A stretch of 64,000 nt of DNA from Giardia intestinalis (taxonomy: Eukaryota), in NCBI GenBank assembly GCA_000002435.2, contig CM018792.1, one strand, 5' to 3'. The stretch's first letter is position 1, and the number at the start of each line of letters is the position of its first letter. The notes under the pieces are model-generated. The model was not told where the DNA came from and did no database searches. It was given only the letters and a program-made list of their open reading frames with translations. Shown here one piece after another: positions 1 to 17,694 of this stretch. The translations under genes and the position numbers were made by a program.

Positions 1-1428
1 ACAGCCATCTATTCCCACATATGCCTTAGCAGCACTATCAGTGCCTGTTGATGTGCCTAGGGGGTTACTACATGCCAACACGGACTGCTGAGCATTGGTT
101 GCCCCCGGAACCAGGAAGTATCTATTGTTGGCTGCTTCTGTACAGACACCCTCCTTACTTGATGTCTTGCACATGAGGCTACCTGGTTCTGTATTAACCT
201 TGTAACAACCATTCATATACATAAAGTACCCTGTAGTACAAGACTCACAGACATGGTTGTTACAAGTATTACTTTGAGCCTCACTAGCACAGAGACCATC
301 TATAGGATACTTACTGCTATCCCCACAATAGGAACAGTAATGATGCTCTACTCCATCATTGTCGATCACTATAGCATCGCAGGCCCCTGCTGTCCCACCA
401 CACGCAGTATCATCTTCACAGGCCTTTGTACATGTGACCCCAGTTGAAGGTTCTCCACTGGGTCTGTAGTTCACCTTGCATTTTGTGCACTTAAATGTGC
501 CACTATTTGTGCACTCGGCACACCCCTCGATGCCACCTTTGGTTGTGTCACTACATGAGATGCACTCACCAGAGGAGCTATCCTTCAAGAAGTACCCTTG
601 CTTACATGTCAGGCACTTACTCGGATCTTCCTTCTTGGAGCATGTCGCACAGCCTGGAGCGCACGGATCGCATGTAAAGCCCCCGCTTCTGTTCTCGATG
701 TATCCCTCCAGGCATTCTGTGCAGGCTGGATTGGCACTCGCTGTCTTCGTGCAAGCCTTACAGCCAGCAATGCCTTTGTTCTTTTGTTCTGAATCCGACG
801 CTGCGGGATCACTGCACAAACGACACACGTTGTCCTCGGTCATAAAGAGACCGTTATCAGCTCCTTGACACCCGGCGTAGTTCTTCGCCACGCAGGTCGA
901 GGTTCCATCAAGGGTCGTCCTGGGGATCTTGGTTCCATCATCGCCACACTTACTGCACTTCGGCTTCTTGGTAGTCGAATCAACTTCACACTGGGTACAG
1001 CTGGGATCTATCGTACTACATTCCTTGCACGTTCTGGTAGCTTCGTCAGTATAGTGTGTGCCTGTGCATGAGCCAGCTACGACACAATCAGTCCCCTTCA
1101 GGTACTTCCCCGCTACGCAGAGGGTGCATGCATTCTGACCGGTTCCACTACACGTCTCGCAGTCGGTATGACATTTGACACATGCACCGTTACCATCTTT
1201 ATAGTACCCTGCTTGACACTCTGTACACGTGGCAGCTCCTGGACTACCACTTGGTTCCGTGCACTTGAGGCAGTTAGCCACTCCTTTGTTCTCATTCGCT
1301 CCCGTGGCATCATGGCACAGGATGCACTCCCCACCAGGGGTCACCTTCTCTGCCCTGTTCTGGAATATGTACTGACTATCTGTATTACAAGCAGTGCACA
1401 GTCCATTACTGGCCTTTGTACATATCAC
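1..1428 (-). CDS. Partial Giardia variant-specific surface protein (VSP) cassette. Its 5' end is inside the window at ~1428, beginning GTG-ATA-TGT = VICTKAS. The 3' part runs off the window start. It is a near-identical copy of 9323..10750.
   Basis: Translations of the overlapping ORFs in 1..1494 are identical to those of 9323..10816 (constant offset 9322). The protein is CXXC-rich and VSP-like. No ATG or signal peptide lies at its 5' end. Confidence 0.8.
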   Translation of the reverse strand, partial: MICTKASNGLCTACNTDSQYIFQNRAEKVTPGGECILCHDATGANENKGVANCLKCTEPSGSPGAATCTECQAGYYKDGNGACVKCHTDCETCSGTGQNACTLCVAGKYLKGTDCVVAGSCTGTHYTDEATRTCKECSTIDPSCTQCEVDSTTKKPKCSKCGDDGTKIPRTTLDGTSTCVAKNYAGCQGADNGLFMTEDNVCRLCSDPAASDSEQKNKGIAGCKACTKTASANPACTECLEGYIENRSGGFTCDPCAPGCATCSKKEDPSKCLTCKQGYFLKDSSSGECISCSDTTKGGIEGCAECTNSGTFKCTKCKVNYRPSGEPSTGVTCTKACEDDTACGGTAGACDAIVIDNDGVEHHYCSYCGDSSKYPIDGLCASEAQSNTCNNHVCESCTTGYFMYMNGCYKVNTEPGSLMCKTSSKEGVCTEAANNRYFLVPGATNAQQSVLACSNPLGTSTGTDSAAKAYVGIDGC

Positions 1429-1495
1429 ACTCCACTATCACACTATCACCCTCTATTACCCATTATCACACATTGTATAGCATTCACTACCTAAG
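1429..1495 (-). repeat. VSP inter-cassette spacer. It holds the extended poly(A) signal of the upstream unit (gene-strand TGA CTTAGGTAGTGAATGCTATACAATG) and then degenerate ~10-nt GTGATAGTG-like repeats.
   Basis: Read directly from the sequence. It is identical to spacer 10751..10817. AGTGAAT matches the Giardia AGTRAAY poly(A) consensus. Confidence 0.75.
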
Positions 1496-3229
1496 TCACG
1501 CCTTCCCCCTGCACACGAACCACCAGCAGAGGAAGCCCACGAGGCCCCCCACGACAGCGACCACAGCCACGGAGATCCCCGCGATGGCCCCCGCGGAGAG
1601 CCCGCTCCTGTTGGCGCCAGAGGACACACACTTACCATTGTCTAGACTGAAGCCACTGTTGCACTCCCCACATATATTATCCATCACACAGCTCTTACAA
1701 CCACCCACAGAGCACAGGACACACCCACTGCCGTCCCTGTTGGGCTTCCTATCACTGTCACAGGAGGTACAGACAGCGGGGGTCATACCAGCTGTTGTTA
1801 GAGCTGTCGGGGCTGTGCACTGGGAGCAGCCATCTACCCCCACATATGCCTTAGCAGTATTACCAGTGCCTGTCAGTGTGCCAAGGGGGTTACTACAAGC
1901 CAACACAGACTGATCAGTGTTGGATGCACCAGGCACTACGAAGTACCTATTGTTGGCTGCTTCTGTGCAGATCCCAGTATTACCTGCTGTCTTGCACATG
2001 AAGCTACCAGGAGCCTTCTGAGTGCTATAACAGCCACCCATATATAAGAAATATCCTGTAGTACAAGACTCACAGACATGGTTGTTACAAGTATTACTTT
2101 GAGCCTCACTAGCACAGAGACCATCTATAGGATACTTACTGCTATCCCCACAGTATGAACAATAGTGCTTTGTGGTGCCCTGATCATCTATTATCATGGC
2201 ATCACAGGCGCCAGAGGTACCACCGCAAGCCGTTGTATCCTCGCAGGTCTTTGTACATGTGACCCCAGTTGAAGGGGTACCGTTTTGCTTGTAGTTGGGC
2301 TTACAGGAGTTGCAGGTCAACGAGCCAGAGAAGGTGCACGTTGCACATCCATCGATGCCCCCCTGTGCATTATCACAAGCAACGCACTCACCAGTAGGAC
2401 CACTGCCTTTCATGAAGAATCCAGGCTTGCATTTAGTACACTGATTATTGCCAGTTTGAGTGCAGGTGGCACAATTATCACCACAGGCTGCGCATGTAAC
2501 CGTACCACTACCACTACTGTAGTATCCAGCTAAGCACTCTGAGCAGGTTGGATTGGCACTTGCTGTCTTCGTGCAAGCCTTACAGCCAGCAATGCCTTTG
2601 TTCTTTGGGTCTGATCCGCTGGTATCGCTGCACAAGACACACGCAGCATCACCATCTGCCTTGAAGTGATCAGCATCCTCGCAGCCAGAGCTTATATCGA
2701 CGCATGTCGTGGTGCCATCGATGGCCGTCTTCACCTTCTTATTGTTATTACAGGCGGTGCACTGGGGCTTACTGACAGTCGCATTGTACTTACAGGTAGT
2801 ACATGCTTGATCTATCGTACTGCATTCCTTGCACGTTCCAGACTCTGGGTCTGGATAAACGGTGCTCGTGCATTGATCACTAGTTACGCAAGTCTTATCA
2901 CCCTTCAAGTACTTCCCCTCTGGACACGATGTGCACTGGGCCGCCGATGTCTCACAGGTCAGACAAGTACCATCACACTTGCTACATGCCTGAAAGTCCT
3001 TGTAGTACCCTGCTTGACAGGCAGTACACGTGGCTGCCCCCTTATTACTATCTGACTTGGTGCATGTGGCGCAGTTAGCCACCCCCGTATACCCATCTGC
3101 TCCCGTGGCATCATGACAGAGTATGCACTCCCTTCCCTTCTCTGGTGCTGTAGCAGGGTTCTGGAATACGTACTTGTTATCTGTCTTACAAGCAGTGCAC
3201 AGTCCATTACTGGCTGCTGTGCATATCAC
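1496..3229 (-). CDS. VSP cassette (577 codons). It has the ...CRGKA C-terminus and a TM helix. It lacks an ATG start and a signal peptide: the first codon is GTG and stop codons lie upstream.
   Basis: The ORF is CXXC-rich, has a GGCY motif, and ends ...AIAGISVAVVAVVGGLVGFLCWWFVCRGKA*. I read codon 3227..3229 as cac, i.e. GTG on the coding strand. The in-frame upstream reading is TAG-TGG-GTG. Confidence 0.85.
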   Translation of the reverse strand: MICTAASNGLCTACKTDNKYVFQNPATAPEKGRECILCHDATGADGYTGVANCATCTKSDSNKGAATCTACQAGYYKDFQACSKCDGTCLTCETSAAQCTSCPEGKYLKGDKTCVTSDQCTSTVYPDPESGTCKECSTIDQACTTCKYNATVSKPQCTACNNNKKVKTAIDGTTTCVDISSGCEDADHFKADGDAACVLCSDTSGSDPKNKGIAGCKACTKTASANPTCSECLAGYYSSGSGTVTCAACGDNCATCTQTGNNQCTKCKPGFFMKGSGPTGECVACDNAQGGIDGCATCTFSGSLTCNSCKPNYKQNGTPSTGVTCTKTCEDTTACGGTSGACDAMIIDDQGTTKHYCSYCGDSSKYPIDGLCASEAQSNTCNNHVCESCTTGYFLYMGGCYSTQKAPGSFMCKTAGNTGICTEAANNRYFVVPGASNTDQSVLACSNPLGTLTGTGNTAKAYVGVDGCSQCTAPTALTTAGMTPAVCTSCDSDRKPNRDGSGCVLCSVGGCKSCVMDNICGECNSGFSLDNGKCVSSGANRSGLSAGAIAGISVAVVAVVGGLVGFLCWWFVCRGKA

Positions 3230-3265
3230 CCACTATCACACATTGTACAGCATTCACTACCCAAG
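3230..3265 (-). repeat. VSP inter-cassette spacer: poly(A) signal CTTGGGTAGTGAATGCTGTACAATG plus a short GTGATAGTG-like repeat.
   Basis: Seen in the sequence. It is homologous to the other spacers. Confidence 0.7.
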
Positions 3266-5032
3266 TCACGCCTTCCCCCTGCACACGAACCACCAGCAGA
3301 GGAAGCCCACGAGGCCCCCCACGACAGCGACCACAGCGACGGAGATCCCCGCGATGGCCCCCGTGGAGAGCCCGCTCCTGTTGGTACTCATAGACACACA
3401 GGAGGTCCCACTGCTGTCTAGACTGAAGCCACTGTTGCACTCCCCACACACATCATCCACCACACAGCTCTTGCAATCACCCACAGAGCACAGCACACAC
3501 CCGGTGCCATCCTTGTTGGGCTTCTTATCACTGTCACAGGAGGTGCATGTAGCGGCAGTCATACCACCATCAGACAGAGCTGTTGGGGCCGTGCATGCTG
3601 AGCAGTTGAGTACCCCAACGTATGCCTTAGCATTGTCTTGAGTACCTATTAGTGTGCCTAATGGGTTACCACATGCTAGTACAGACTGCTGAGCATTGGT
3701 TGCCTCTGGGACTACGAAGTATCTATTGTTGGCCGCTTCTGTGCATATCCCAGTATTACCTGCTGTCTTGCACATGAAGCTACCAGGAGCCTTCTGAGTG
3801 CTATAACAGCCACCCATGTATAGGAAGTAGTTGTTGGTGCACTGTGTACATACACCATTAGCACAAGTATTCCCAGCCTTTTGAGCCTCACTAGCACAGA
3901 GACCATCTATAGGAGCTTGTGAACTATCTCCACAATAGGAACAGTAGTGCTTTGTGGTGCCCTGATCATCTATTACGATGGCATCACAAGAGCCAGCTGT
4001 CCCCCCACAAGCCGTGGGGTCCTCGCAGGTCTTCTCTGTGCATGTATAGTTGTCTGAGGTTCCAGCGGGCTTCCTGTTAGGCTTGCACTTTGTGCACTTG
4101 AGAGGTCCTGTAGACTCCTTTGTGCACTCGGCACACCCATCGATGCCCCCCTGTGCATTATCACAAGCAACGCACTCACCAGTAGGACCATTGCCTTTCA
4201 TGAAGAACCCAGGCTTGCATGTATCACACTTATCATTGCCAGTTTGAGTGCAGGTGGCACAGTTAGCACCTGGACAAGCGGTGCATGTAACCGTACCACT
4301 ACCACTACTGTAGTATCCATCGAGGCACTCCGAGCAGGTCGGCGGTGTCGCCGAGTCCTTGGTACACTTCTTACACCCGGCAATGCCCTGGTAATTTGGA
4401 TCGGCTCCAGCTGAAACGGTACTGCATAAAACACATGTTTTGTCCTCCTTCATAAATAGGGCCTCGTCAGCGCCTTTACATCCAGCGTAGTCTTTTGTCA
4501 CGCACGTCGAGGTCCCATCAAGGGCCGTCCTGGGGATCTTACTGTTATCACAAGCTGTGCACTTCGGCTTCTTGGTAGTCGAATCAACCTCACACTGGGT
4601 ACATGCTTGATCTATCGTGTTGCAAGGAAGGCACTTCCCCGACTCCGGGTCAGCATAAGTGTTTCCAGTGCATCCATTATTATTCACGCATGACTTGTCA
4701 GTCTTCAGGTACTTCCCCTCTGGACACGATGTACACTGATTCGGACCACTTCCATCGCAGGTCAGACAAGACTGATCACACTGCATACATACCAGAGAGT
4801 CCTTGTAGTATCCATCTTGGCAGGTATCACACGTGGCAGCCCCTGGACTATTAGCTGGTGCCGTGCACTTGAGGCAATTAGCCACTCCCTTGTTCTCATT
4901 CGCTCCCGTGGCATCATGGCACAGGATGCACTCATTACCAGGGGTCACTGTCGTAGCCTTGTTCTGGAATATGTACTGGTTATCTACCTTACAAGCAGTG
5001 CACACTCCATCACTGGCTGCTGTGCATATCAC
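3266..5032 (-). CDS. VSP cassette (588 codons) ending CRGKA. It has no ATG or signal peptide and starts GTG-ATA-TGC = VICTAAS.
   Basis: Same architecture as 1496..3229. I read codon 5030..5032 as cac (GTG). Confidence 0.85.
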   Translation of the reverse strand: MICTAASDGVCTACKVDNQYIFQNKATTVTPGNECILCHDATGANENKGVANCLKCTAPANSPGAATCDTCQDGYYKDSLVCMQCDQSCLTCDGSGPNQCTSCPEGKYLKTDKSCVNNNGCTGNTYADPESGKCLPCNTIDQACTQCEVDSTTKKPKCTACDNSKIPRTALDGTSTCVTKDYAGCKGADEALFMKEDKTCVLCSTVSAGADPNYQGIAGCKKCTKDSATPPTCSECLDGYYSSGSGTVTCTACPGANCATCTQTGNDKCDTCKPGFFMKGNGPTGECVACDNAQGGIDGCAECTKESTGPLKCTKCKPNRKPAGTSDNYTCTEKTCEDPTACGGTAGSCDAIVIDDQGTTKHYCSYCGDSSQAPIDGLCASEAQKAGNTCANGVCTQCTNNYFLYMGGCYSTQKAPGSFMCKTAGNTGICTEAANNRYFVVPEATNAQQSVLACGNPLGTLIGTQDNAKAYVGVLNCSACTAPTALSDGGMTAATCTSCDSDKKPNKDGTGCVLCSVGDCKSCVVDDVCGECNSGFSLDSSGTSCVSMSTNRSGLSTGAIAGISVAVVAVVGGLVGFLCWWFVCRGKA

Positions 5033-5099
5033 ACTCCACTATCACACATTATCACACTATCACCTTCTATCACACATTGTACAGCATTCACTACCTAAG
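5033..5099 (-). repeat. VSP inter-cassette spacer: poly(A) signal CTTAGGTAGTGAATGCTGTACAATG plus about four degenerate decamer repeats (cactatcaca / cattatcaca on the plus strand).
   Basis: Seen in the sequence. Confidence 0.7.
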
Positions 5100-7070
5100 T
5101 CACGCCTTCCCCCTGCACACGAACCACCAGCAGAGGAAGCCCACGAGGCCCCCCACGACAGCGATGACAGCCACGGAGATCCCTGCTATGGCACCAGTAC
5201 TGAGGCCGCTTCTGTTGCCCCCGCTGGGCTTGGTGGACACGCACGCCTCACCCTCCAGCCTGTAGTCGTCCCCACACTGGCCGCACTTGTTCTCCTCGCT
5301 GCACCTGACGCACCCGTCGATACTGCAGGCGATGCACTGGGAGCCGTCCAGGCTGGGCCTCTGGTCTTTACTGGTACAGCCCTCGCACTTATCGCCTGCT
5401 CCACAGTGCGAACATCCACTAACGGTACATGCGAAGCACCCGCTCCCAGCCAGGTTGGGCTTGTTGTTGCCGCTACACGCTGTGCACGTGGCGGGGGCCA
5501 TGCCAGGAGCCTCTAGCTGTGTCGGGGCTGTACATGCTGAGCAGCCATCTACTCCCACATATGCCTTAGCAGTATCACCAGTGCCTGTCAGTGTGCCTAG
5601 GGGGTTGCTACAAGCCAACACGGACTGATCAGTGTTGGATGCCCCTGGGACCAGGAAGTACTTATTACTTGCTGCCTCTGTGCATATCCCATTACTACTT
5701 GATGCCTTGCACATGAAGCTACCTGGTTCTTGACCAACCTTATAACAGCCTCCCATATATAAGAAGTACCCTTGAGCACACTGTGTACATGTATGACTGT
5801 CACAGGTATTAGTTCCTTTCTTATTATTATCACTAGTACATATACCATCAATAGGGAACTTATTAGCCTCTCCACAGTAAGAACAATAGTGCTTTGTGGT
5901 GCCCTGATCATCTATTATCATGGCATCACAGGCGCCAGAGGTACCACCGCAAGCCGTTGTATCCTCGCAGGTCTTTGTACATGTGACCCCAGTTGAAGGG
6001 GTACCGTTTTGCTTGTAGTTGGGCTTACAGGAGTTGCAGGTCAACGAGCCAGAGAAGGTGCACGTTGCACATCCATCGATGCCCCCCTGTGCATTATCAC
6101 AAGCAACGCACTCACCAGTAGGACCATTGCCTTTCATGAAGAACCCAGGCTTGCATGTATCACACTTATCATTGCCAGTTTGAGTGCAGGTGGCACAGTT
6201 AGCACCTGGACAAGCGGTGCATGTAACCGTACCACTACCACTACTGTAGTATCCATCGAGGCACTCCGAGCAGGTCGGCGGTGTCGCCGAGTCCTTGGTA
6301 CACTTCTTACACCCGGCAATGCCCTGGTAATTTGGATCGGCTCCAGCTGAAACGGTACTGCATAAAACACATGTTTTGTCCTCCTTCATAAATAGGGCCT
6401 CGTCAGCGCCTTTACATCCAGCGTAGTCTTTTGTCACGCACGTCGAGGTCCCATCAAGGGCCGTCCTGGGGATCTTACTGTTATCACAAGCTGTGCACTT
6501 CGGCTTCTTGGTAGTCGAATCAACCTCACACTGGGTACATGCTTGATCTATCGTGTTGCAAGGAAGGCACTTCCCCGACTCCGGGTCAGCATAAGTGTTT
6601 CCAGTGCATCCATTATTATTCACGCATGACTTGTCAGTCTTCAGGTACTTCCCCTCTGGACACGATGTGCAATGATTCGGACCACTTCCATCGCAGGTCA
6701 GACAGGACGGATCACACTTCTCACATGCATCACCCTTCTTAATGTATCCATCTTGGCAGACAGTGCATGTGGCCGGTCCGCTAGTGCCCGTGTGGGAGCA
6801 TTCTGAGCATCCAGCGACTCCCATGACCCCGTTTCTATCTATAGTATCGGAGCACAAGATGCACTCACTACCCTTCTCTGATGGTGTAACTGGGTTCTTG
6901 AACAGGCCGTTAGCTGTATTACAAGCAGTGCACAGTCCTCCCTCAGCCTTTGTGCATATCTCACTGCCAGGGTGTGCATCCTTGTTGTAGCACCCGCCCA
7001 TGAAGAGGAGTCTCATACTATCACTATCACCCCCACACCACATAGCACTATCACTATCACTGTACAGCAT
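5100..7070 (-). CDS. VSP cassette (656 codons) ending CRGKA. Its apparent ATG is the ATG embedded in the upstream unit's poly(A) signal (AGTGAATGCTG). Its N-terminal extension translates the spacer repeats (MLYSDSDSAMWCGGDSDSM...) and then a partial GGCY module. There is no signal peptide.
   Basis: The translation MLYSDSDS... corresponds to the GTGATAGTG repeats read in frame. SEICTKAEGGLCTAC aligns with the start point of the other cassettes. Confidence 0.8.
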   Translation of the reverse strand: MLYSDSDSAMWCGGDSDSMRLLFMGGCYNKDAHPGSEICTKAEGGLCTACNTANGLFKNPVTPSEKGSECILCSDTIDRNGVMGVAGCSECSHTGTSGPATCTVCQDGYIKKGDACEKCDPSCLTCDGSGPNHCTSCPEGKYLKTDKSCVNNNGCTGNTYADPESGKCLPCNTIDQACTQCEVDSTTKKPKCTACDNSKIPRTALDGTSTCVTKDYAGCKGADEALFMKEDKTCVLCSTVSAGADPNYQGIAGCKKCTKDSATPPTCSECLDGYYSSGSGTVTCTACPGANCATCTQTGNDKCDTCKPGFFMKGNGPTGECVACDNAQGGIDGCATCTFSGSLTCNSCKPNYKQNGTPSTGVTCTKTCEDTTACGGTSGACDAMIIDDQGTTKHYCSYCGEANKFPIDGICTSDNNKKGTNTCDSHTCTQCAQGYFLYMGGCYKVGQEPGSFMCKASSSNGICTEAASNKYFLVPGASNTDQSVLACSNPLGTLTGTGDTAKAYVGVDGCSACTAPTQLEAPGMAPATCTACSGNNKPNLAGSGCFACTVSGCSHCGAGDKCEGCTSKDQRPSLDGSQCIACSIDGCVRCSEENKCGQCGDDYRLEGEACVSTKPSGGNRSGLSTGAIAGISVAVIAVVGGLVGFLCWWFVCRGKA

Positions 7071-7082
7071 TCACTACCTAAG
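7071..7082 (-). repeat. Minimal 12-nt spacer between the stop of unit 7083..8870 and the apparent ATG of unit 5100..7070. It is part of the conserved poly(A)-signal block.
   Basis: Seen in the sequence. My own base counting is off by one around here, so I used the track coordinates. Confidence 0.5.
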
Positions 7083-8870
7083 TCACGCCTTCCCCCTGCA
7101 CAGGAACCACCAGCAGAGGAAGCCCACGAGGCCCCCCACGACAGCGACCACGGCGACGGCAATGCCCGCGATGGCGCCCGTGGAGAGCCCGCTCCTGTTG
7201 GTGCTCGTAGACACACAGGAGGTCCCACTGCTGTCAGGGCTGTATCCACTGTTGCACACACAGACAGAGTTATCATCAGTGGAGTTGCTGGGGCAGCCAT
7301 CCACGCATGACTTCCTCCCAGGGCTCACCTTCTTACCACTACTACACACCTCGCACATGTCATCCCTGTTGCAGTGGGAGCATCCACTAATGGCACATGA
7401 GAAGCACCCACTGCCGTCCCTGTTGGGCTTCCTATCACTGTCACAGGAGGTACACACAGCAGCAGCCATACCACCCTCAGTCAGAGCTGTTGGGGCTGTG
7501 CACTGTGAGCAGCCATCCACCCCCACGTATGCCTTAGCAGTATCACCAGTGCCTGTCAGTGTGCCTAGGGGGTTGCTACAAGCCAACACGGACTGATCAG
7601 TGTTGGATGCCCCTGGGACCAGGAAGTACTTATTACTTGCTGCCTCTGTGCATATCCCATTACTACTTGATGCCTTGCACATGAAGCTACCTGGTTCTTG
7701 ACCAACCTTATAACAGCCTCCCATATATAAGAAGTACCCTTGAGCACACTGTGTACATGTATGACTGTTACAAGTATTACCTTTCTTATCAGTAGCACAG
7801 ATGCCATCAATTGGTACCTTAGTACTCTCCCCACAGTATGAGCAATAGTGAAGCTCCTTTCCATCAGCACCGATCACTATGGCATCACAAGAGCCAGCTG
7901 TCCCCCCGCATGCAGTCTCATCTTCACAGGTCTTTGTACACGTATAGTCATCCCCTGCATCTCCATTAAGCTGTTTCTTATAGTTAGGCTTACAGTCAGT
8001 ACATTTGAATCCACCACTGTTAGAGCATGCACTGCACCCATCGCGGCCACCATTTGCTGTATCACTACATGAGATGCACTCACCAGAGGAGCTATCCTTC
8101 AAGAAGTACCCTTGCTTGCAGGTCGTGCATTGGTCTTTTGTATCCTTAGCACAGGTGGCACAGTTCTCACCACAGGCTGTGCATGTAGCGGTATTACCAC
8201 TTGCACTATTGTAATATCCATCGAGGCACTTTGTACATGTAGTTTTAGAGGAGCAGGTATCACAACCTAGAATCCCACCATTTTTAGTATCACCACATGG
8301 AACACAAGCTTTTGGAGATTGTTCAAGGAAGTGCGTATTGCCACTTGTGCACTCTGCCTCCGCAACACACGTCGCTGACCCATCGGGGTTCACCTTAAGA
8401 AGCAGGTTTCCTCCACTATTACACCCAGTGCACACAGGCTTCTGAAGAGTGTCGCTGTATGCACACGTAGCACATTCATTGACACTTGTGTCCGTGCAGG
8501 CCTTGCATTGGCCTGTTTTTGGGTCTGCATACTTACCATTGTCACATTGATTAGCATCCACACACTTGTCAGCCTTCAGGAACTTCCCCTCAACGCAGGC
8601 GGTACACTGAGTCGGAGTATCAGCTGAGCAGGCAGAGCAGCCCTCTCCGCACTTCACACATGCACTGTCCTTCTTAACGAACCCATCTTGACAGGCAGTA
8701 CATGTGACAGGTCCTGCACTCTGTGGTGCCTGACACTGTGCGCAGTTAGCCACCCCCGTATATCCATCTGCTCCCTTGATATCATGACAGAGGATGCACT
8801 CACTACCCTTCTCTGGTGTTGCAGCAGGGTTCTTGAACAGGCCGTTATCTGCCTTACAAGTAGTGCACAC
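7083..8870 (-). CDS. VSP cassette (595 codons) ending CRGKA. It has no ATG or signal peptide. The stop-to-stop frame begins TAG-TGG-AGT-GAG-ATA = *WSEICTKAEGGVCTTCK (to ~8903).
   Basis: CXXC-rich VSP-like protein. I read codon 8868..8870 as cac (GTG). A stop codon lies at ~8904..8906 upstream. Confidence 0.85.
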   Translation of the reverse strand: MCTTCKADNGLFKNPAATPEKGSECILCHDIKGADGYTGVANCAQCQAPQSAGPVTCTACQDGFVKKDSACVKCGEGCSACSADTPTQCTACVEGKFLKADKCVDANQCDNGKYADPKTGQCKACTDTSVNECATCAYSDTLQKPVCTGCNSGGNLLLKVNPDGSATCVAEAECTSGNTHFLEQSPKACVPCGDTKNGGILGCDTCSSKTTCTKCLDGYYNSASGNTATCTACGENCATCAKDTKDQCTTCKQGYFLKDSSSGECISCSDTANGGRDGCSACSNSGGFKCTDCKPNYKKQLNGDAGDDYTCTKTCEDETACGGTAGSCDAIVIGADGKELHYCSYCGESTKVPIDGICATDKKGNTCNSHTCTQCAQGYFLYMGGCYKVGQEPGSFMCKASSSNGICTEAASNKYFLVPGASNTDQSVLACSNPLGTLTGTGDTAKAYVGVDGCSQCTAPTALTEGGMAAAVCTSCDSDRKPNRDGSGCFSCAISGCSHCNRDDMCEVCSSGKKVSPGRKSCVDGCPSNSTDDNSVCVCNSGYSPDSSGTSCVSTSTNRSGLSTGAIAGIAVAVVAVVGGLVGFLCWWFLCRGKA

Positions 8871-8992
8871 TCCTCCCTCAGCCTTTGTACATATCTCACT
8901 CCACTATCATACTATCACACACTATCACCCATTATCACCCTCTATCACACATTATCACCCATTATCATCACTCATAGCATTCACTACCTAAG
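8871..8992 (-). repeat. Longest VSP inter-cassette spacer (~120 nt). It holds the poly(A) signal CTTAGGTAGTGAATGCTATGAG and about eight degenerate decamer repeats (cattatcacc / ctctatcaca / cactatcata on the plus strand).
   Basis: Seen in the sequence. Confidence 0.75.
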
Positions 8993-10750
8993 TCACGCCT
9001 TCCCTCTACACACGAACCACCAGCAGAGGAAGCCCACGAGGCCCCCCACGACAGCGACCACAGCCACGGAGATCCCCGCGATGGCCCCCGCGGAGAGCCC
9101 GCTCCTGTTGGCGCCAGAGGACACACACTTACCATTGTCTAGACTGAAGCCACTGTTGCACTCCCCACACACACCGTCCACCACACAGCTCTTGCAGTTG
9201 GTGTCAGAGCATACTACACACCCACTGCCATCCTTGTTGGGCTTTTTATCACTGTCACAGGAGGTGCACACAGCGGGGGTCATACCACCATCAGACAGAC
9301 CTGCTGGGGCTGTACATGCTGAACAGCCATCTATTCCCACATATGCCTTAGCAGCACTATCAGTGCCTGTTGATGTGCCTAGGGGGTTACTACATGCCAA
9401 CACGGACTGCTGAGCATTGGTTGCCCCCGGAACCAGGAAGTATCTATTGTTGGCTGCTTCTGTACAGACACCCTCCTTACTTGATGTCTTGCACATGAGG
9501 CTACCTGGTTCTGTATTAACCTTGTAACAACCATTCATATACATAAAGTACCCTGTAGTACAAGACTCACAGACATGGTTGTTACAAGTATTACTTTGAG
9601 CCTCACTAGCACAGAGACCATCTATAGGATACTTACTGCTATCCCCACAATAGGAACAGTAATGATGCTCTACTCCATCATTGTCGATCACTATAGCATC
9701 GCAGGCCCCTGCTGTCCCACCACACGCAGTATCATCTTCACAGGCCTTTGTACATGTGACCCCAGTTGAAGGTTCTCCACTGGGTCTGTAGTTCACCTTG
9801 CATTTTGTGCACTTAAATGTGCCACTATTTGTGCACTCGGCACACCCCTCGATGCCACCTTTGGTTGTGTCACTACATGAGATGCACTCACCAGAGGAGC
9901 TATCCTTCAAGAAGTACCCTTGCTTACATGTCAGGCACTTACTCGGATCTTCCTTCTTGGAGCATGTCGCACAGCCTGGAGCGCACGGATCGCATGTAAA
10001 GCCCCCGCTTCTGTTCTCGATGTATCCCTCCAGGCATTCTGTGCAGGCTGGATTGGCACTCGCTGTCTTCGTGCAAGCCTTACAGCCAGCAATGCCTTTG
10101 TTCTTTTGTTCTGAATCCGACGCTGCGGGATCACTGCACAAACGACACACGTTGTCCTCGGTCATAAAGAGACCGTTATCAGCTCCTTGACACCCGGCGT
10201 AGTTCTTCGCCACGCAGGTCGAGGTTCCATCAAGGGTCGTCCTGGGGATCTTGGTTCCATCATCGCCACACTTACTGCACTTCGGCTTCTTGGTAGTCGA
10301 ATCAACTTCACACTGGGTACAGCTGGGATCTATCGTACTACATTCCTTGCACGTTCTGGTAGCTTCGTCAGTATAGTGTGTGCCTGTGCATGAGCCAGCT
10401 ACGACACAATCAGTCCCCTTCAGGTACTTCCCCGCTACGCAGAGGGTGCATGCATTCTGACCGGTTCCACTACACGTCTCGCAGTCGGTATGACATTTGA
10501 CACATGCACCGTTACCATCTTTATAGTACCCTGCTTGACACTCTGTACACGTGGCAGCTCCTGGACTACCACTTGGTTCCGTGCACTTGAGGCAGTTAGC
10601 CACTCCTTTGTTCTCATTCGCTCCCGTGGCATCATGGCACAGGATGCACTCCCCACCAGGGGTCACCTTCTCTGCCCTGTTCTGGAATATGTACTGACTA
10701 TCTGTATTACAAGCAGTGCACAGTCCATTACTGGCCTTTGTACATATCAC
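8993..10750 (-). CDS. VSP cassette (585 codons) ending CRGKA. It has no ATG or signal peptide and reads *WS-VICTKASNGLCTAC.
   Basis: I read codon 10748..10750 as cac (GTG). An in-frame stop lies at ~10757..10759. Its 5' 1428 nt is duplicated at 1..1428. Confidence 0.85.
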   Translation of the reverse strand: MICTKASNGLCTACNTDSQYIFQNRAEKVTPGGECILCHDATGANENKGVANCLKCTEPSGSPGAATCTECQAGYYKDGNGACVKCHTDCETCSGTGQNACTLCVAGKYLKGTDCVVAGSCTGTHYTDEATRTCKECSTIDPSCTQCEVDSTTKKPKCSKCGDDGTKIPRTTLDGTSTCVAKNYAGCQGADNGLFMTEDNVCRLCSDPAASDSEQKNKGIAGCKACTKTASANPACTECLEGYIENRSGGFTCDPCAPGCATCSKKEDPSKCLTCKQGYFLKDSSSGECISCSDTTKGGIEGCAECTNSGTFKCTKCKVNYRPSGEPSTGVTCTKACEDDTACGGTAGACDAIVIDNDGVEHHYCSYCGDSSKYPIDGLCASEAQSNTCNNHVCESCTTGYFMYMNGCYKVNTEPGSLMCKTSSKEGVCTEAANNRYFLVPGATNAQQSVLACSNPLGTSTGTDSAAKAYVGIDGCSACTAPAGLSDGGMTPAVCTSCDSDKKPNKDGSGCVVCSDTNCKSCVVDGVCGECNSGFSLDNGKCVSSGANRSGLSAGAIAGISVAVVAVVGGLVGFLCWWFVCRGKA

Positions 10751-10817
10751 ACTCCACTATCACACTATCACCCTCTATTACCCATTATCACACATTGTAT
10801 AGCATTCACTACCTAAG
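10751..10817 (-). repeat. VSP inter-cassette spacer, identical to 1429..1495.
   Basis: Seen in the sequence. Confidence 0.75.
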
Positions 10818-12887
10818 TCACGCCTTCCCCCTGCACACGAACCACCAGCAGAGGAAGCCCACGAGGCCCCCCACGACAGCGACCACAGCCACGGAGATCC
10901 CCGCGATGGCCCCCGCGGAGAGCCCGCTCCTGTTGGCGCCAGAGGACACACACTTACCATTGTCTAGACTGAAGCCACTGTTGCACTCCCCACATATATT
11001 ATCCATCACACAGCTCTTACAACCACCCACAGAGCACAGGACACACCCACTGCCGTCCCTGTTGGGCTTCTTACTACTGTCACAGGAGGTACAGACAGCG
11101 GGGGCCATACCACCATCAGACAGAGCTGCTGGGGCTGTACACTGGGAGCAGCCCTCTACTCCCACATATGCCTTAGCAGTATCACCAGTGCCTGTCAGTG
11201 TGCCTAGGGGGTTGCTACAAGCCAACACAGACTGATCAGTGTTGGATGCACCAGGCACTACGAAGTACCTATTGTTGGCTGCTTCTGTGCAGATCCCAGT
11301 ATTACCTGCTGTCTTGCACATGAAGCTACCAGGAGCCTTCTGAGTGCTATAACAGCCACCCATGTATAGGAAGTAGTTGTTGGTGCACTGTGTACATACA
11401 CCATTAGCACAAGTATTCCCAGCCTTTTGAGCCTCACTAGCACAGAGACCATCTATAGGAGCTTGTGAACTATCTCCACAATAGGAACAGTAGTGCTTTG
11501 TGGTGCCCTGATCATCTATTACGATGGCATCACAAGAGCCAGCTGTCCCCCCACAAGCCGTGGGGTCCTCGCAGGTCTTCTCTGTGCATGTATAGTTGTC
11601 TGAGGTTCCAGCGGGCTTCCTGTTAGGCTTGCACTTTGTGCACTTGAGAGGTCCTGTAGACTCCTTTGTGCACTCGGCACACCCATCGATGCCCCCCTGT
11701 GCATTATCACAAGCAACGCACTCACCAGTAGGACCATTGCCTTTCATGAAGAATCCAGGCTTGCATTTAGTGCACTTATCATTGCCAGCTTGAGTGCAGG
11801 TGGCACAGTTGGCACCACAGGCTTCACATGTAACCGTACCACCATTTCCACTATTGTAATATCCGTCGAGGCACTCCGAGCAGGTCGGCTTGGCTCCGTT
11901 CTTCTTACATGTTTTACACCCAGGCGTCCCTTTATTAGCTTCTAAACTTTCACTATCATCACTACACAATATGCACTTGGTGCTACCATCATTTAGAAAG
12001 TGGGATCCGTCAACGTTACTTGTTGCGCACCCATTTGCATCGACACAGGTTGTCGTGCCATCGATGGCCGTCTTCACCATCTTCTGACCACCGCAGTTAG
12101 TGCACTTCGGCTTCTTGGTAGTCGAATCAACCTCACACTGGGTACATGCTTGATCTATCGTGTTGCAAGGAAGGCACTTCCCCGACTCCGGGTCAGCATA
12201 AGTGTTTCCAGTGCATCCATTATTATTCACGCATGACTTGTCACCCTTCAAGTACTTCCCCTCTGGACACGATGTGCACTGGGCCGCCGATGTCTCACAG
12301 GTCAGACAAGTACCATCACACTTGCTACATGCCTGAAAGTCCTTGTAGTACCCTGCTTGACAGGCAGTACACGTGGCTGCCCCCTTATTACTGTCTGACT
12401 TGGTACACTGTGCGCAGTTAGCCACCCCCGTATATCCATCTGCTCCATTGATATCGGAGCACAGTATGCACTCACTACCCTTCTCTGGTGTTGCAGCAGG
12501 GTTCTTGAACAGGCCGTTAGCTGTCTTACACTCAGTGCACAGTCCTCCCTCAGCCTTTGTGCATATCTCGCTGCCGGGCCCGTCGGTTGTCTTGTAGCAC
12601 CCGCCCATGAAGAGGAAGTACCCGTCGCCGCACTTCTCGCAGGTTGCTGTCATCTTGTCAAGGGCAGCCCCGCCCGCTTTGGTGCACCCGGCTGCCGCGG
12701 CCTGGGGGGAGCCGAAGGGTCGGCAGAAGCCGTCGACCGGGACGCCCCCGGTCTTGCACTCGGTGCAGATCTCGGCTGACCCGACCGTCTCGCACTTGCC
12801 GGTCTGGCAGGTCGCGGCGTGGTCTCCGTCTGGCTGGCAGGCCGCCATGAGCGCGCTCGCTACGAACAGGGGTATCAGTTGGAACAT
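10818..12887 (-). CDS. Complete VSP gene (~689 aa). It has an ATG in an Inr-like context (CTCTAATGTTCC) and a signal peptide (MFQLIPLFVASALMAACQ). It has VSP repeats, a TM helix and a CRGKA tail. It is the head of the array.
   Basis: The track ORF 10818..13076 starts at a GTG. The first in-frame ATG, at 12887..12885, is followed by a hydrophobic leader. Everything downstream of the leader is VSP-like. Confidence 0.85.
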   Translation of the reverse strand: MFQLIPLFVASALMAACQPDGDHAATCQTGKCETVGSAEICTECKTGGVPVDGFCRPFGSPQAAAAGCTKAGGAALDKMTATCEKCGDGYFLFMGGCYKTTDGPGSEICTKAEGGLCTECKTANGLFKNPAATPEKGSECILCSDINGADGYTGVANCAQCTKSDSNKGAATCTACQAGYYKDFQACSKCDGTCLTCETSAAQCTSCPEGKYLKGDKSCVNNNGCTGNTYADPESGKCLPCNTIDQACTQCEVDSTTKKPKCTNCGGQKMVKTAIDGTTTCVDANGCATSNVDGSHFLNDGSTKCILCSDDSESLEANKGTPGCKTCKKNGAKPTCSECLDGYYNSGNGGTVTCEACGANCATCTQAGNDKCTKCKPGFFMKGNGPTGECVACDNAQGGIDGCAECTKESTGPLKCTKCKPNRKPAGTSDNYTCTEKTCEDPTACGGTAGSCDAIVIDDQGTTKHYCSYCGDSSQAPIDGLCASEAQKAGNTCANGVCTQCTNNYFLYMGGCYSTQKAPGSFMCKTAGNTGICTEAANNRYFVVPGASNTDQSVLACSNPLGTLTGTGDTAKAYVGVEGCSQCTAPAALSDGGMAPAVCTSCDSSKKPNRDGSGCVLCSVGGCKSCVMDNICGECNSGFSLDNGKCVSSGANRSGLSAGAIAGISVAVVAVVGGLVGFLCWWFVCRGKA

Positions 12888-12900
12888 TAGAGGGTCCCCT
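12880..12900 (-). promoter_or_regulatory. Initiator-like element around the VSP start codon (gene-strand GACCCTCTAATGTTCC, matching the Giardia VSP Inr PyAATGTT).
   Basis: Read directly from the sequence. The Inr consensus is established knowledge for Giardia VSP genes. Confidence 0.45.
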
Positions 12901-15675
12901 GCTGTGGCCTCTACCCCGTCTGTGGCTACCCAGCACGGCACACGGGGGGAGCGCTGTTCCACCCCTGCCTTGGAGGCCCCTGTCTCGACTCGGCCCACAG
13001 CACCAGAGCGTGGTGGTCTTCCACTCTTGGGCCCCGCACAGCCCGTCTCTGTGCCCAAGCGACTCACCCCAGGCACTCACACGACGGAGACCCCCGCGGC
13101 AGTGCTCCGGCAGGCGGGCTGCGCTGATGTCCGGCCCGGCGCAGAGCCCAGAAGGCTCAGAGGTCATGGCTCCTTGATGACTGCCATGTCGTTCTCCTCG
13201 CTCGGTTGACATGCACCCTGCTAGAAGGCTCCCACTTACTCGAGCTCATGCCCCCCTGTGGTGACTCTGCTCGACCATCAGCGAGGGTCCCGGTCCTCCT
13301 CCCAATAGGCCGGCCTCAGGTCCCCCGTGATCTGCCAGACCGGGCAGAGTGATCGCGGCGCCCGTCAGAGCCTGAGCCGACAGGCCCGCAGTGAAGTGCG
13401 CCTGGATCCACGGAGATCGTTCACTCCCCCAGTGGGCCGCAGCTTCCCCTGCCCTGCTGACAGTCCTCCAGCGAGGGCATGTCGTTGTGGGGCAGTCTTC
13501 TCGTCCTGCCGTGCACACAGGGCCCGACTGGTGACTTTCGGACAGTCCCGATGGTATGCCTGAAGCCCCGCCACGGCAGAGGGGGCAGCACACGGGGCGG
13601 CCCCTACGCTGCTACAGATTGCAATGGCAGCAGAGACCCCCTGCCCGAGAGGCCCGTGCATTGGCTGTGGCGGCCATCCACTCCATGCGGGCCCGGTGCG
13701 GCGCTCCTGGAGAGCCCTTGCCTCTGGTGGTGCTGACAGGGCTCCCGAGGGACCAAGGCGTCAGACGAGGGACGGGCCGAGCAGGACTCCCAGCCCACAT
13801 GCAGATGTCCCTGCCGTGTGCCCGGTCCTGTAGAGACCCGAGCCGCTGGAGGTGTCCCTCGGCATCCGGCCCCCTGCTGTGCCAGTCGGTGCAGGGGAGC
13901 AGCGTACAGGGCCCTCATGGGCAGTCTCCTCTCACAGACAGGGCACCAGGGGTCTCAGCAACCGACCGGCCGATGCAAGGGACAGGCTCTCCTGCCACGA
14001 CGGCGCTCTGCTGCTAGGAGGGTCTGGCGGACAAGCTATCAGCACACGCACTCTCCTGGGCCGCCTCGGGGCACTCCAGCGTGGCCAGCGGCTTGCGGAT
14101 CAGTCTGGTGTCCCGGAGCGTGTGAGGAAGATGAGGGGTTTACTCTGGGCTGCCGTCTTGTCGAGGGCAGTCCCGTGCATGAAGCTCTGAACTCATGTGA
14201 TGCCGGTCCAGAGGCACCTCTGACGAGAGCATTAACAAGAGAAGCGTTGAGTAGTCAATGGTCCATCCTGTAAGCAAGCTGCTAGGTGCGAAGGCATTGA
14301 ATCTGTGTGCGGTCGCATGGCCACACATCACGACCCACAACGTCATAGCGCACCGCATAGCTGGCACACCCCAAGGGTGTATGGAGACAGTAGACCAGTA
14401 GTTTAATGGATCAAGGCAGAGACTGTGCCACAAAGCGTGGAAAGACGGGTTCCACAGAAGCTGGTAAGCTACGATCACCAGTCTTCTATAATAGTGAGTG
14501 ATGTCAACAATCTCTTCCCGAAGGAGCTTACAGATCTATCTCTAATCAGCTAACTGGGGGATAAAGAAAAACAACTAGGGTCTACCGTGAGGCACCCTGC
14601 CACAGTTGATCATGGCAGCCACCGATGAATGCACTCCATTCCACAGAATAATAGACACCCGGAGTCCTTTCAATCTGATCGAGTCTAAGTCCACAGCAGA
14701 CCGCCCGGCCCGAGAGCCTACTGTTGCTGGGCGAGGGGCGTCAGTGGACCGTAGCCTTCCATAGACTGGGATAGGTGACCAGTGTCGGGGCTCGTCAACC
14801 ATGATGAATCGGCTGTGATCGGGTATTTCCCTGCCGCATAACTGGGACATGCAGAACAGCTCTGGGCAGAGCGAGAAATTGACTGGAGTGGCGGGGCTGA
14901 ATCCCTCGATTGATGCCAATCTCTGACTACGATATCGGGCGACTCATCGATCTTTTTAGCGATACTAGCCGAGAGTTACAGCTGTCTTTACTTAAGCTAT
15001 CTTTGCGCTTCACTATGCTGATGTTGCTTGTTGTACAGTAAGTCTGTGCTTGCTTAATCTAGATGCCTTTGCACAATAATACCGTAGATGCGCTTAACGA
15101 TTACCCATCAATGCAACTTTTTGCTGAGCTGATTGCATATTATAAAAGTCAATTGTGTCTAAGAAGCTAGCGCCTCAGTAAACCAAAGGAAGGCATATAC
15201 GATGTTAAAAAGTGCCTCTCTAACGTACAATTGACACCTTAATATTCTTCTGATTGTCAATGGCTATAAAGTGAATCTCGTCCGTAGTAAATTCTTAGAG
15301 GAGTTCACAGCTTCTTTGTTATAGCGGACTTGCACACAAATGCACCTCACTTGATGGTCAACACATTTCAATCAGATCAATCAAAAAAATTATTACAATT
15401 CTAGCCAAGTAAAAATCCAATCTTGAGTAAAGATTGAGTTCGATGGCGGCGTGGCAGTCTACATTATAACATCCCTAGGATTTACTGCTGAAAATTGCTG
15501 AGCAATGGCCAATGTGGATACAATTAGATCGTATTAAATAATTGCAATCACTTTAACTGTACATCGCTTGGGGCAGTAAGCAGTTCAGCAGTGCTGGTTT
15601 AGCTTTAGCAAACAAATAAGGTTTGGAAAGACGGTGACTTTATTTTGAATCGATGTTTTTAATAACTTTTATCCT

Positions 15676-16494: not shown

Positions 16495-16747
16495 TGTTTT
16501 ATTGGGCCAATGCCACTATGCAATCTACTCTGCTACTGATGTGATATCGGAATACAGATCCTGCAAACGCTCATAATGCACAGTACTGAGTGTTAGTAAA
16601 TTTTGTTCATCAGATCACGAAGAAGCAAGATCTTGTCGTAGAAAAGATGCTAGTATGCAGGTCTGCTAAATGAATAGCAGAATAGCAGGTTCATTGGACG
16701 CCTTCTCACAAGTAGACATCTGTCCGCCGGCAAAAAATTGAGATTTC

Positions 16748-17668: not shown

Positions 17669-17694
17669 TAACCGGCTAATAAACTATTATATTC

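What the first reader, a model, noticed from the sequence alone, without database searches (positions are those of the whole stretch)
8871..8992. Inter-cassette spacers carry the extended poly(A) signal plus variable-copy ~10-nt repeats that run into the cassette 5' boundary
Each spacer starts, on the gene strand, with TGA-CTTAGGTAGTGAATGCT. This is the VSP extended poly(A) signal and contains AGTGAAT. Between one and eight degenerate GTGATAGTG / GGTGATAATG units follow (spacers are 36, 67, 67, 12, 122 and 67 nt). The repeat-like sequence continues into the first cassette codons (TAG TGG AGT GTG ATA TGT). The cassette 5' boundary is therefore defined by the repeat. The conserved 3' TM/CRGKA/poly(A) block and the 5' repeat together flank every unit. 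They could act as homology or targeting sites for cassette exchange. They could also be replication-slippage hotspots that set the unit boundaries.
Basis: seen in the sequence. Interest (0 to 1): 0.55.

Follow-up and report, generated by a model that had tools for sequence, protein, structure and literature searches.

The report
Short repeats between Giardia VSP cassettes
The gaps between tandem, promoter-less surface-antigen (VSP) gene copies in Giardia WB hold the known VSP poly(A) signal followed by a small, length-unstable GTGATA repeat, which looks like a slippage-prone scar of the duplication junction, not a recombination signal.

Summary
Window 1-12887 (minus strand) is a Giardia intestinalis WB "linear array". 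One complete VSP gene is followed by six 5'-truncated, start-less VSP cassettes.

Every junction begins with the VSP extended poly(A) signal. CTTAGGTAGTGAATGCT is exact at 5 of 6 junctions, against 0.14 expected by chance. A cytosine-free run of degenerate GTGATA units (periods 6, 8 and 10) follows and runs into the first cassette codons. GTGATARTG occurs 20 times against 1.02 expected, and 16 of those lie in the spacers.

The arrays, the "cassette reservoir" idea and the extended poly(A) signal are already published. I found no published mention of the spacer repeat in the papers I could search.

- **Distribution.** The repeat recurs in other WB array units, in isolate DH (assemblage A2) and in a Giardia contig from a human gut metagenome. 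It is absent after solitary VSPs and from the assemblage B and E arrays sampled.
- **Length instability.** Junctions with matching flanks differ in copy number, which points to slippage.
- **Recombination.** The near-identical tracts shared by cassettes all end inside coding sequence. A 1748-nt identical block runs straight through a spacer. The only expressible gene has no repeat.

The slippage reading is supported and the recombination-target reading is not. Interest is modest.

The parts
10818..12887 (-). Head gene of the array. It is a complete VSP of 689 aa (KAE8304460.1 / XP_037902103.1) with a TAATGTT initiator element, a signal peptide (MFQLIPLFVASALM), a transmembrane segment and the CRGKA tail.
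   Evidence: Pfam PF03302 (VSP) is the precomputed domain for the near-identical database protein P0001.
10754..10817 (-). Junction J1, type A. Poly(A) block CTTAGGTAGTGAATGCTATACAATG (10793-10817), then a 39-nt repeat block with no cytosine (10754-10792).
8993..10753 (-). Cassette U1. A 5'-truncated VSP with an open frame, no start codon and no signal peptide. Its last 390 aa are 99.5% identical to GenBank 'VSP S6' (AAN52101).
8901..8992 (-). Junction J2, the flagged spacer, type A. A 25-nt poly(A) block (8968-8992) is followed by a 67-nt repeat block with no cytosine, about 7 units (8901-8967). Positions 8871-8900 of the flagged interval are already cassette sequence homologous to the head gene.
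7083..8900 (-). Cassette U2, a 5'-truncated VSP. The stop-to-stop open frame is 606 codons.
7010..7082 (-). Junction J3, type B: poly(A) block, (GTGATA)2, GTGCTATGTGGTGTGGGG, (GTGATA)2, GTATGAGAC. Homology to the head gene starts at TCCTCTTCATGG, about 25 codons earlier than in type A. The junction translates as MLYSDSDSAMWCGGDSDSMRL.
5100..7009 (-). Cassette U3, a 5'-truncated VSP. An ORF of 656 codons opens at an ATG inside the poly(A) signal.
5036..5099 (-). Junction J4, type A. Poly(A) block plus a 39-nt repeat block with no cytosine.
3266..5035 (-). Cassette U4, a 5'-truncated VSP.
3231..3265 (-). Junction J5, type A, the shortest. The poly(A) block carries one substitution (CTTGGG) and is followed by a single 10-nt unit, TGTGATAGTG.
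1496..3230 (-). Cassette U5, a 5'-truncated VSP.
1432..1495 (-). Junction J6, identical to J1. It lies inside the perfect duplicate 1-1748 = 9323-11070.
1..1431 (-). Cassette U6, cut by the window edge and identical to U1. The array continues beyond the window.

Best explanation
The spacer has two parts with different histories.

Part 1: the first 25-31 nt after each CRGKA stop codon (CTTAGGTAGTGAATGCTRTACAATG) are the VSP 3' UTR with its extended poly(A) signal. This block was copied along with the conserved transmembrane/CRGKA region every time a unit was duplicated or converted. It ends about where mRNA cleavage is expected.

Part 2: the rest is a degenerate microsatellite with no cytosine. 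Its core is GTGATA and its units are 6, 8 or 10 nt long. It sits at the scar where the 3' flank of one VSP copy was joined to a 5'-truncated next copy. The tract probably grew from short seeds that are present in repeat-free relatives:
- GGTGATGG in the 3' flank.
- GTGAGATATG, the Ser-Glu-Ile-Cys codons at the start of the cassette.

The tract changes length by replication slippage or unequal sister-chromatid exchange. It is inherited by descent within one family of assemblage-A arrays. On this reading it is a passenger and a marker of array ancestry, not a recombination signal. Cassettes exchange sequence through homology inside their coding regions.

Shown by the data:
- the anatomy of the junctions;
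- enrichment of the motif;
- copy-number differences between junctions with matching flanks;
- the distribution of the repeat across isolates;
- the positions of the identical tracts.

Inferred:
- slippage as the mechanism;
- the seed sequences;
- the position of the cleavage site;
- the absence of a function.
For: Anatomy and enrichment. The repeat blocks contain 0 cytosines in 39, 67, 39, 10 and 39 nt.

Length instability: J5, L018 and J4 share the left flank GCTGTACAATG and the right flank GTGATATGCACAGCAGCCAGT but hold 1.5, 3.5 and 4.5 units. Old WB proteins start MLYSDSDS or MLYSDSDSDS, a difference of one GATAGT unit.

Descent within assemblage A: the repeat is present in
- further WB units: P0002, P0008, P0042 and P0096, and in degenerate form P0026;
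- DH protein P0187, which starts VIEGDSDSVGLLFMGGCY;
- the metagenome contig L018.

The repeat is absent from
- solitary VSPs L001 and L002;
- the syntenic single VSP in DH and the VSP 3' end next to the acyltransferase gene in contigs carrying the WB acyltransferase allele;
- the GS and P15 arrays.

Seed: the repeat-free flank GTAGTGAATGTATCAATGGATCCTGGTGATGG resembles the spacer start GTAGTGAATGCTATACAATGTGTGATAATGG.

Cleavage site: the signal hexamer AGTGAA lies 8-13 nt after the stop codon. Giardia cleaves most often 13-15 nt past the signal (bioRxiv 10.1101/2022.03.07.483299). That places the cut at the boundary between the conserved block and the repeats.

Passenger status: the identical tracts end in coding sequence, and one runs through a spacer.

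No sign of other roles: no secondary structure (z-scores +0.6 to +1.2) and no Rfam match.
Against: Slippage was not observed directly. I could not compare the same junction between isolates, so the copy-number variation is between paralogous junctions and a non-orthologous contig.

The repeat persists in at least three assemblage-A genomes and in both junction types. Persistence could reflect selection and not only descent.

Only one array was available as DNA from WB. The evidence for other WB and DH units comes from translated protein N-termini.

With about 13 internal tracts, finding no endpoints in spacers that make up about 3-5% of each unit is weak negative evidence.
Confidence: 0.6

Rival explanations
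1. The repeats are cassette-boundary recombination elements. Together with the conserved 3' block they would give upstream and downstream homology for moving whole cassettes between arrays or into an expressed gene. They would work like the 70-bp repeats upstream of trypanosome VSG genes or the 17-bp direct repeats of Borrelia vls.
For: - A repeat block lies upstream and a conserved block downstream of every cassette.
- The same spacer family occurs in other WB units, in DH and in L018.
- The cassettes stay open and are under purifying selection, with dN/dS 0.30-0.43 and 68 of 70 cysteine columns conserved. This is expected of useful donors.
- The cassettes are clearly mosaic.
Against: - The head gene and solitary VSPs have no repeat, so a recipient would lack the upstream homology.
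- None of the internal identical tracts ends at a repeat, and the 1748-nt duplicate crosses one.
- The blocks are short (10-67 nt) and degenerate.
- The assemblage B and E arrays sampled, which the literature reports as also recombining, lack the repeat.
Confidence: 0.13
2. The GT-rich, cytosine-free tract has a role in RNA handling. It could act as a downstream element that strengthens 3'-end cleavage or termination after each unit. It could also act as a stop-codon barrier: TGA, TAA and TAG occur in shifting frames and would keep read-through transcripts from being translated into the next cassette.
For: - The tract begins at the predicted cleavage site.
- J1/J6, J2 and J4 carry stop codons in all three frames, 1 to 7 per frame.
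- The tract is unstructured.
Against: - Solitary, expressed-type VSPs manage without the tract.
- The type-B junction has period-6 repeats. The reading frame that opens at the ATG inside the poly(A) signal stays open right through them, giving the MLYSDSDS... ORFs.
- J5 has only one unit, and two of its three frames have no stop codon.
- No downstream cleavage element came up for Giardia in the papers I read for this report.
Confidence: 0.12
3. The pattern is due to chance or is an assembly artefact of a collapsed or expanded repeat region.
For: The array contains a perfect 1748-nt duplicate. Short-read assemblies break at its edges, so this region is hard to assemble.
Against: - The motif enrichment is far beyond any shuffle.
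- The same spacer appears in an independent metagenome assembly and in DH and old WB protein models.
- The junctions differ from one another in ways a collapse would not create.
Confidence: 0.03

Closest known systems
Giardia VSP linear arrays / pseudo-VSP arrays (Adam et al. 2010, PMC2996952; Xu et al. 2020, PMC7000408; G. muris, PMC7641422)
   Same: - Head-to-tail VSP units with very short gaps. The published mean is 60 bp, ranging from overlap to 241 bp.
- The first member has an initiator element and upstream region. Downstream members lack the initiator, a start codon and a signal peptide.
- Units are mosaic.
- The units are proposed as a reservoir for recombination.

The window is one such array in the WB GL2.1 assembly.
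   Different: Nothing differs at the level of the array. The searchable text of these papers contains neither 'spacer' nor the GTGATA motif. A full-text search for Giardia plus GTGATAGTG found only one unrelated paper, on Cryptosporidium genotyping in cattle.
VSP extended polyadenylation signal ACUUAGRUAGURAAYRY (bioRxiv 10.1101/2022.03.07.483299)
   Same: The first 17-25 nt of every spacer match this motif. That paper reports that 323 of 327 motif hits belong to VSPs or pseudo-VSPs.
   Different: The array uses the less common AGUGAA hexamer. Past the published motif it carries a further conserved GCTRTACAATG.
Trypanosoma brucei VSG 70-bp repeats with the conserved VSG 3' end (from my own knowledge)
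   Same: Silent cassettes are flanked upstream by imperfect short repeats and downstream by a conserved 3' block.
   Different: - The 70-bp repeats also lie upstream of the gene in the expression site, and conversion tracts start in them.
- Here the expressible head gene lacks the repeat and the tracts end in coding sequence.
- The repeat blocks here are 10-67 nt, not hundreds to thousands of nt.
Borrelia burgdorferi vls silent cassettes with 17-bp direct repeats (from my own knowledge)
   Same: A contiguous array of promoter-less cassettes sits next to one expression locus, with segmental conversion and short direct repeats at the cassette boundaries.
   Different: - In vls the same 17-bp repeat flanks the cassette region of the expressed vlsE gene. 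There is no equivalent here.
- Giardia antigen switching is described as epigenetic (PMC2996952). It is not described as relying on DNA rearrangement.
Ordinary microsatellite or minisatellite at a duplication junction
   Same: - Short degenerate tandem units.
- Strand-biased composition.
- Copy number differs between copies that share the same flanks.
- No secondary structure and no coding role.
   Different: It is inherited as part of a multi-copy 1.8-2.0 kb unit. It is therefore found at many junctions of one gene family instead of at a single locus.

Membership tests
Giardia VSP linear array (pseudo-VSP array) | Two or more VSP units head to tail, with gaps of 0-241 bp | tested here: met
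   Seven units lie on the minus strand. Gaps are 12-122 nt by ORF call and 35-92 nt by homology.
Giardia VSP linear array (pseudo-VSP array) | Each unit ends with the conserved transmembrane segment, the CRGKA tail and the extended poly(A) signal | tested here: met
   All six complete 3' ends encode ...GFLCWWF[VL]CRGKA followed by a stop codon and the 17-mer.
Giardia VSP linear array (pseudo-VSP array) | The first member has the initiator element (PyAATGTT) and a signal peptide, and downstream members lack them | tested here: met
   The head gene has CTAATGTT and MFQLIPLFVASALM. Cassettes begin at ...SEICT or ...LFMGGCY with an in-frame stop codon or a spurious ATG upstream.
Giardia VSP linear array (pseudo-VSP array) | Belongs to a Giardia genome | tested here: met
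   The head gene and four neighbouring proteins are exact matches to WB C6 GL2.1 proteins on a 2,761,001-bp chromosome.
Recombination boundary repeat (VSG 70-bp-repeat type) | A repeat lies upstream of every silent cassette | tested here: met
   All six junctions carry GTGATA units.
Recombination boundary repeat (VSG 70-bp-repeat type) | The same repeat lies upstream of the variable region in the expressed or recipient gene | tested here: not met
   There is no GTGATA cluster in or upstream of the head gene. The only GTGATA sites above 10817 are isolated ones at 11185 and 11710. Solitary VSPs have none either.
Recombination boundary repeat (VSG 70-bp-repeat type) | Conversion tracts start or end in the repeat | tested here: not met
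   Both ends of all 13 internal near-identical tracts lie in coding sequence, and the 1748-nt duplicate crosses a spacer. The sample is small, a single array.
Slippage-prone microsatellite | Tandem short units, with copy number differing between copies that share both flanks | tested here: met
   J5, L018 and J4 hold 1.5, 3.5 and 4.5 units between the same flanks. SDSDS and SDSDSDS variants occur in other units.
Slippage-prone microsatellite | Length polymorphism at the same (orthologous) locus between isolates or between genome copies | not testable with these tools
   No second assembly of this array could be retrieved. Short-read contigs break at the array edges. In DH the syntenic position holds a single VSP.
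Giardia spliceosomal intron / alternative splicing onto cassettes (considered) | A GTATGT 5' splice site, and a CTRACACACAG-type branch point and 3' splice site at the cassette boundary (consensus from my own knowledge) | tested here: not met
   The type-A repeat blocks have no cytosine on the gene strand and the type-B block has two. No CACACAG-type site is seen at the boundary. The head gene has no GTATGT at the equivalent point.

The most novel reading that the evidence does not exclude
The cytosine-free GTGATA tracts could be cis-acting elements specific to assemblage-A Giardia. They might be fragile, replication-pausing or protein-bound sites that start breaks or template switches at cassette boundaries. 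On this reading they would drive expansion, contraction and whole-cassette shuffling of pseudo-VSP arrays. That would make them a functional analogue of the trypanosome 70-bp repeats, in an organism where antigen switching is thought to be purely epigenetic.
Probability: 0.1. Interest if true: 0.7.

Novelty: new member of a known kind. Interest (0 to 1): 0.3.

Why it matters
VSP arrays make up a large share of the Giardia antigen repertoire, and how they grow and exchange sequence is unsettled. The spacer repeat is a cheap marker in two ways:
- It identifies one family of arrays shared by assemblage A1 and A2 and not seen in the B and E arrays sampled.
- Its length could serve as a fast-evolving tag for tracking array history between isolates.

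It also explains the odd MLYSDSDS... N-termini of 'VSP' proteins in the old WB annotation. They are translated spacers, not real protein sequence.

The analysis bears on the reservoir hypothesis as well. The cassettes are kept open under purifying selection and exchange segments through coding homology. The spacers do not act as boundaries for that exchange. If the repeats did prove to start recombination, they would make DNA-level VSP diversification experimentally testable. Present evidence does not favour that.

Tried and rejected
- **Splicing of the head exon onto cassettes.** Rejected. No Giardia-type splice or branch motifs are present, and the type-A repeat tracts have no cytosine.
- **Structured RNA or DNA element.** Rejected. 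Folding is no better than shuffled sequence, and Rfam found nothing in the window.
- **Retroposed cDNA origin of the units.** Rejected. There is no A-tract after the poly(A) signal.
- **General property of VSP 3' flanks.** Rejected by solitary VSPs.
- **General property of all VSP arrays.** Rejected by the GS and P15 arrays.
- **JGI metagenome scan** for GGTAGTGAATGCTRTACA. It gave 26 hits, all unrelated chance matches and none from Giardia.
- **Short-peptide protein searches** with the translated spacer. They found nothing useful because of the word index.
- **Looking up the head gene's own contig.** It failed with 'not on record', so I could not read other arrays of the WB chromosome-level assembly.
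- **Contigs from other isolates around the flanking genes.** They break about 1.1-1.55 kb upstream of the 272-aa gene (mostly near window position 14130) and at the conserved VSP 3' end, so they give no orthologous junctions.

Full report
**What the region is**

The window comes from Giardia intestinalis WB C6, GL2.1 assembly. The first VSP gene and four neighbouring proteins are exact matches to WB proteins on a 2,761,001-bp chromosome. The matches are KAE8304460.1, thymidine kinase, SOF1, GL50803_008358 and an AstB/chuR-related protein.

On the minus strand, 10818-12887 encodes a complete VSP. It has the TAATGTT initiator element, a signal peptide, a transmembrane segment and the CRGKA tail.

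Six further VSP units follow head to tail. Their stop codons are at 8993, 7083, 5100, 3266 and 1496, and the sixth unit runs off the window start. All six lack the roughly 90-115 N-terminal codons, including the signal peptide. Most begin directly after an in-frame stop codon.

This is a 'linear array' as described by Adam et al. 2010. In that description the gaps average 60 bp and the downstream members lack the initiator element. The authors suggested the downstream members serve as cassettes for recombination (PMC2996952). The units are the pseudo-VSPs of Xu et al. 2020 (PMC7000408).

**Checking the observation**

The 17-mer CTTAGGTAGTGAATGCT follows all six stop codons. Five copies are exact and one has a single mismatch, against 0.14 expected by chance. 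It matches the published VSP extended poly(A) signal ACUUAGRUAGURAAYRY, which is tied almost exclusively to VSPs and pseudo-VSPs (bioRxiv 10.1101/2022.03.07.483299).

Degenerate GTGATA-based units follow the signal at every junction. Tandem Repeats Finder reports period 10 x 5.7 copies and period 20 x 3.7 copies at 8896-8967, with weaker arrays at the other junctions.

GTGATARTG occurs 20 times in 64 kb against 1.02 expected. All 20 are on the gene strand inside the array, and 16 are in the roughly 390 nt of spacers.

The repeat blocks contain no cytosine at the five type-A junctions and two at the type-B junction.

Measured by homology to the head gene, the junctions are 64, 92, 73, 64, 35 and 64 nt. 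The flagged interval 8871-8992 includes 30 nt of true cassette sequence. The '12-nt' spacer exists only because an ATG inside the poly(A) signal opens an ORF through the repeats.

**Two junction types**

| | Type A | Type B |
|---|---|---|
| Where | 10817, 8992, 5099, 3265, 1495 | 7082 |
| Sequence | GCTRTACAATG (GCTATGAGTGATG at 8992), then units KGTGATARWR (10 nt) or GTGTGATA (8 nt) | GCTGTACA, (GTGATA)2, an 18-nt spacer, (GTGATA)2 |
| Cassette start | (A)GTGWGATATG, the Ser-Glu/Val-Ile-Cys codons | TCCTCTTCATGG, about 25 codons further upstream |

In type A, the cassette's first decamer is in register with the repeats. So the repeat is not tied to one truncation point.

**Where else the repeat occurs**

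Type B translates as MLYSDSDSAMWCGGDSDS.... The same N-terminus heads several old-annotation WB 'VSP' proteins that are only 55-72% identical to the window units across most of their length:
- P0002, P0042 and P0096.
- P0008, which carries one extra Asp-Ser pair, that is one more GATAGT unit.
- P0026, in degenerate form.

A partial VSP from isolate DH (assemblage A2, ESU39685.1) starts VIEGDSDSVGLLFMGGCY, a translated type-B-like spacer.

A Giardia contig from a human gut metagenome (L018) is a tandem VSP unit of about 2009 bp. Its spacer is type A with 4.1 ten-nt units.

The repeat is absent in the following:
- Downstream of solitary VSPs in an ENA assembly and in P15.
- Downstream of the single VSP at the syntenic position in DH.
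- At the VSP 3' end next to the acyltransferase gene in contigs carrying the WB acyltransferase allele.
- In arrays of GS (assemblage B) and P15 (assemblage E).
- In about 200 kb of other Giardia loci, where the motif occurs three times apart from the two L018 spacers.

So the repeat marks a family of assemblage-A arrays. It is not a feature of VSP genes in general.

**Evidence for length instability**

J5, L018 and J4 share the same left flank (GCTGTACAATG) and right flank (GTGATATGCACAGCAGCCAGT). They hold about 1.5, 3.5 and 4.5 units. J2 shows a 20-nt super-period, consistent with duplication of unit pairs.

A repeat-free relative of the spacer start exists next to the acyltransferase gene. 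It reads GTAGTGAATGTATCAATGGATCCTGGTGATGG, against GTAGTGAATGCTATACAATGTGTGATAATGG in the array. That offers a plausible seed, as do the cassette's own first codons. Both seeds are inference.

**Evidence on recombination**

The units are 63-82% identical overall but share 13 internal tracts of 71-596 nt with 0-2 mismatches. This is clear segmental exchange. Every end of these tracts lies in coding sequence.

A perfect 1748-nt duplicate (1-1748 = 9323-11070) covers a whole cassette and a spacer. It ends 252 nt inside the preceding unit's coding region.

Tracts that cover the universally conserved 3' block stop about 15-32 nt past the stop codon, at or just inside the start of the repeats. That region is close to where mRNA cleavage is predicted, 13-15 nt after the AGTGAA hexamer. 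It is best read as the end of the selected 3' UTR.

The head gene has no repeat. It therefore could not pair with the cassettes' upstream repeat.

The cassettes have no internal stop codons. Their dN/dS is 0.30-0.43 at dS up to about 1, and 68 of 70 cysteine columns are conserved. So they evolve as coding sequence. This fits the published reservoir idea but does not involve the spacers.

**Other roles considered**

- The spacers do not fold.
- Rfam finds nothing in the window.
- There are no Giardia splice motifs at the boundary.
- There is no A-tract that would suggest a cDNA origin.
- Stop codons occur in all three frames at four of the five type-A junctions (J5 is the exception). At the type-B junction the ORF that opens at the ATG inside the poly(A) signal reads through the repeats uninterrupted.

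**Conclusion**

The spacer is the known VSP 3' UTR and poly(A) signal followed by a junction microsatellite. The microsatellite is inherited within one array family and drifts in length, most likely by slippage (confidence about 0.6).

The 'homology or targeting site' idea is not supported, though one array cannot exclude it.

The array, the cassette hypothesis and the poly(A) signal are already known. The repeat itself appears undescribed in the searchable literature. It is a minor addition.

Noticed in passing
window 1-1748 and 9323-11070: These two stretches are a perfect 1748-nt duplicate with no mismatches. It covers cassette U1/U6, the spacer and 252 nt of the preceding unit. This implies a higher-order repeat of 9322 bp (five units), and the array continues beyond the window start.
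   Followed up: partly
window 1496-10753 (cassettes U1-U5): The start-less cassettes, annotated as pseudogenes, have no internal stop codons. Their dN/dS is 0.30-0.43 at dS up to about 1, and 68 of 70 cysteine columns are conserved. They evolve as protein-coding sequence despite having no start codon or signal peptide.
   Followed up: yes
window 8993-10165 (3' part of U1) and its identical partial copy in U6 (window 1-843): The last 390 aa of U1 are 99.5% identical to GenBank AAN52101, 'variant-specific surface protein S6' (P0097). If that entry is a cDNA, a cassette with no start codon of its own is represented in transcripts. I could not establish the origin of the entry.
   Followed up: partly
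L008 (DH contig AHGT01000028.1) compared with window 10818-23076: In isolate DH (A2) the syntenic position holds a single, diverged VSP followed directly by an acyltransferase gene, with no array. In WB the acyltransferase is KAE8304521.1. Accession numbering in this region follows gene order, which puts it about 60 genes from the head VSP (KAE8304460.1), on the far side of the window's other genes. This suggests an inversion or rearrangement with VSP genes at the breakpoints, or a collapsed DH assembly.
   Followed up: partly
window ~12900-14140: The 2-kb window 12001-14000, which includes the region upstream of the head VSP, is GC-rich (63%). Three of four short-read contigs from other isolates carrying the neighbouring 272-aa gene end near window position 14130, and the fourth near 14600. 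This suggests the upstream region is repeated elsewhere in the genome.
   Followed up: no
window 7010-7082, and proteins P0002, P0008, P0026, P0042, P0096, P0187: An ATG inside the poly(A) signal (GAATGCT) opens an ORF through the type-B spacer. Several database 'VSP' proteins therefore carry a spurious N-terminus such as MLYSDSDSAMWCGGDS..., or VIEGDSDS in DH, which is translated spacer.
   Followed up: yes
L003 9800-10001, L006 3330-3533, L007 20-221 (GS, assemblage B): In the three GS units examined as DNA, the 5'-truncated unit starts at a different point (VNDPAGVSIDSLCRP...). A different non-coding stretch ending ...GTGA precedes it, conserved between L003 and L006. Some of these units end in frameshifted tails instead of CRGKA. 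This is a separate junction family that I did not analyse further.
   Followed up: no
L018 (ERZ28595607, human gut metagenome scaffold_10471): This 3.6-kb Giardia contig from a human gut metagenome is 1.8 copies of a tandem VSP unit of about 2009 bp. One copy carries an in-frame stop codon (GVDGC*QC), so it is a degenerating cassette.
   Followed up: partly
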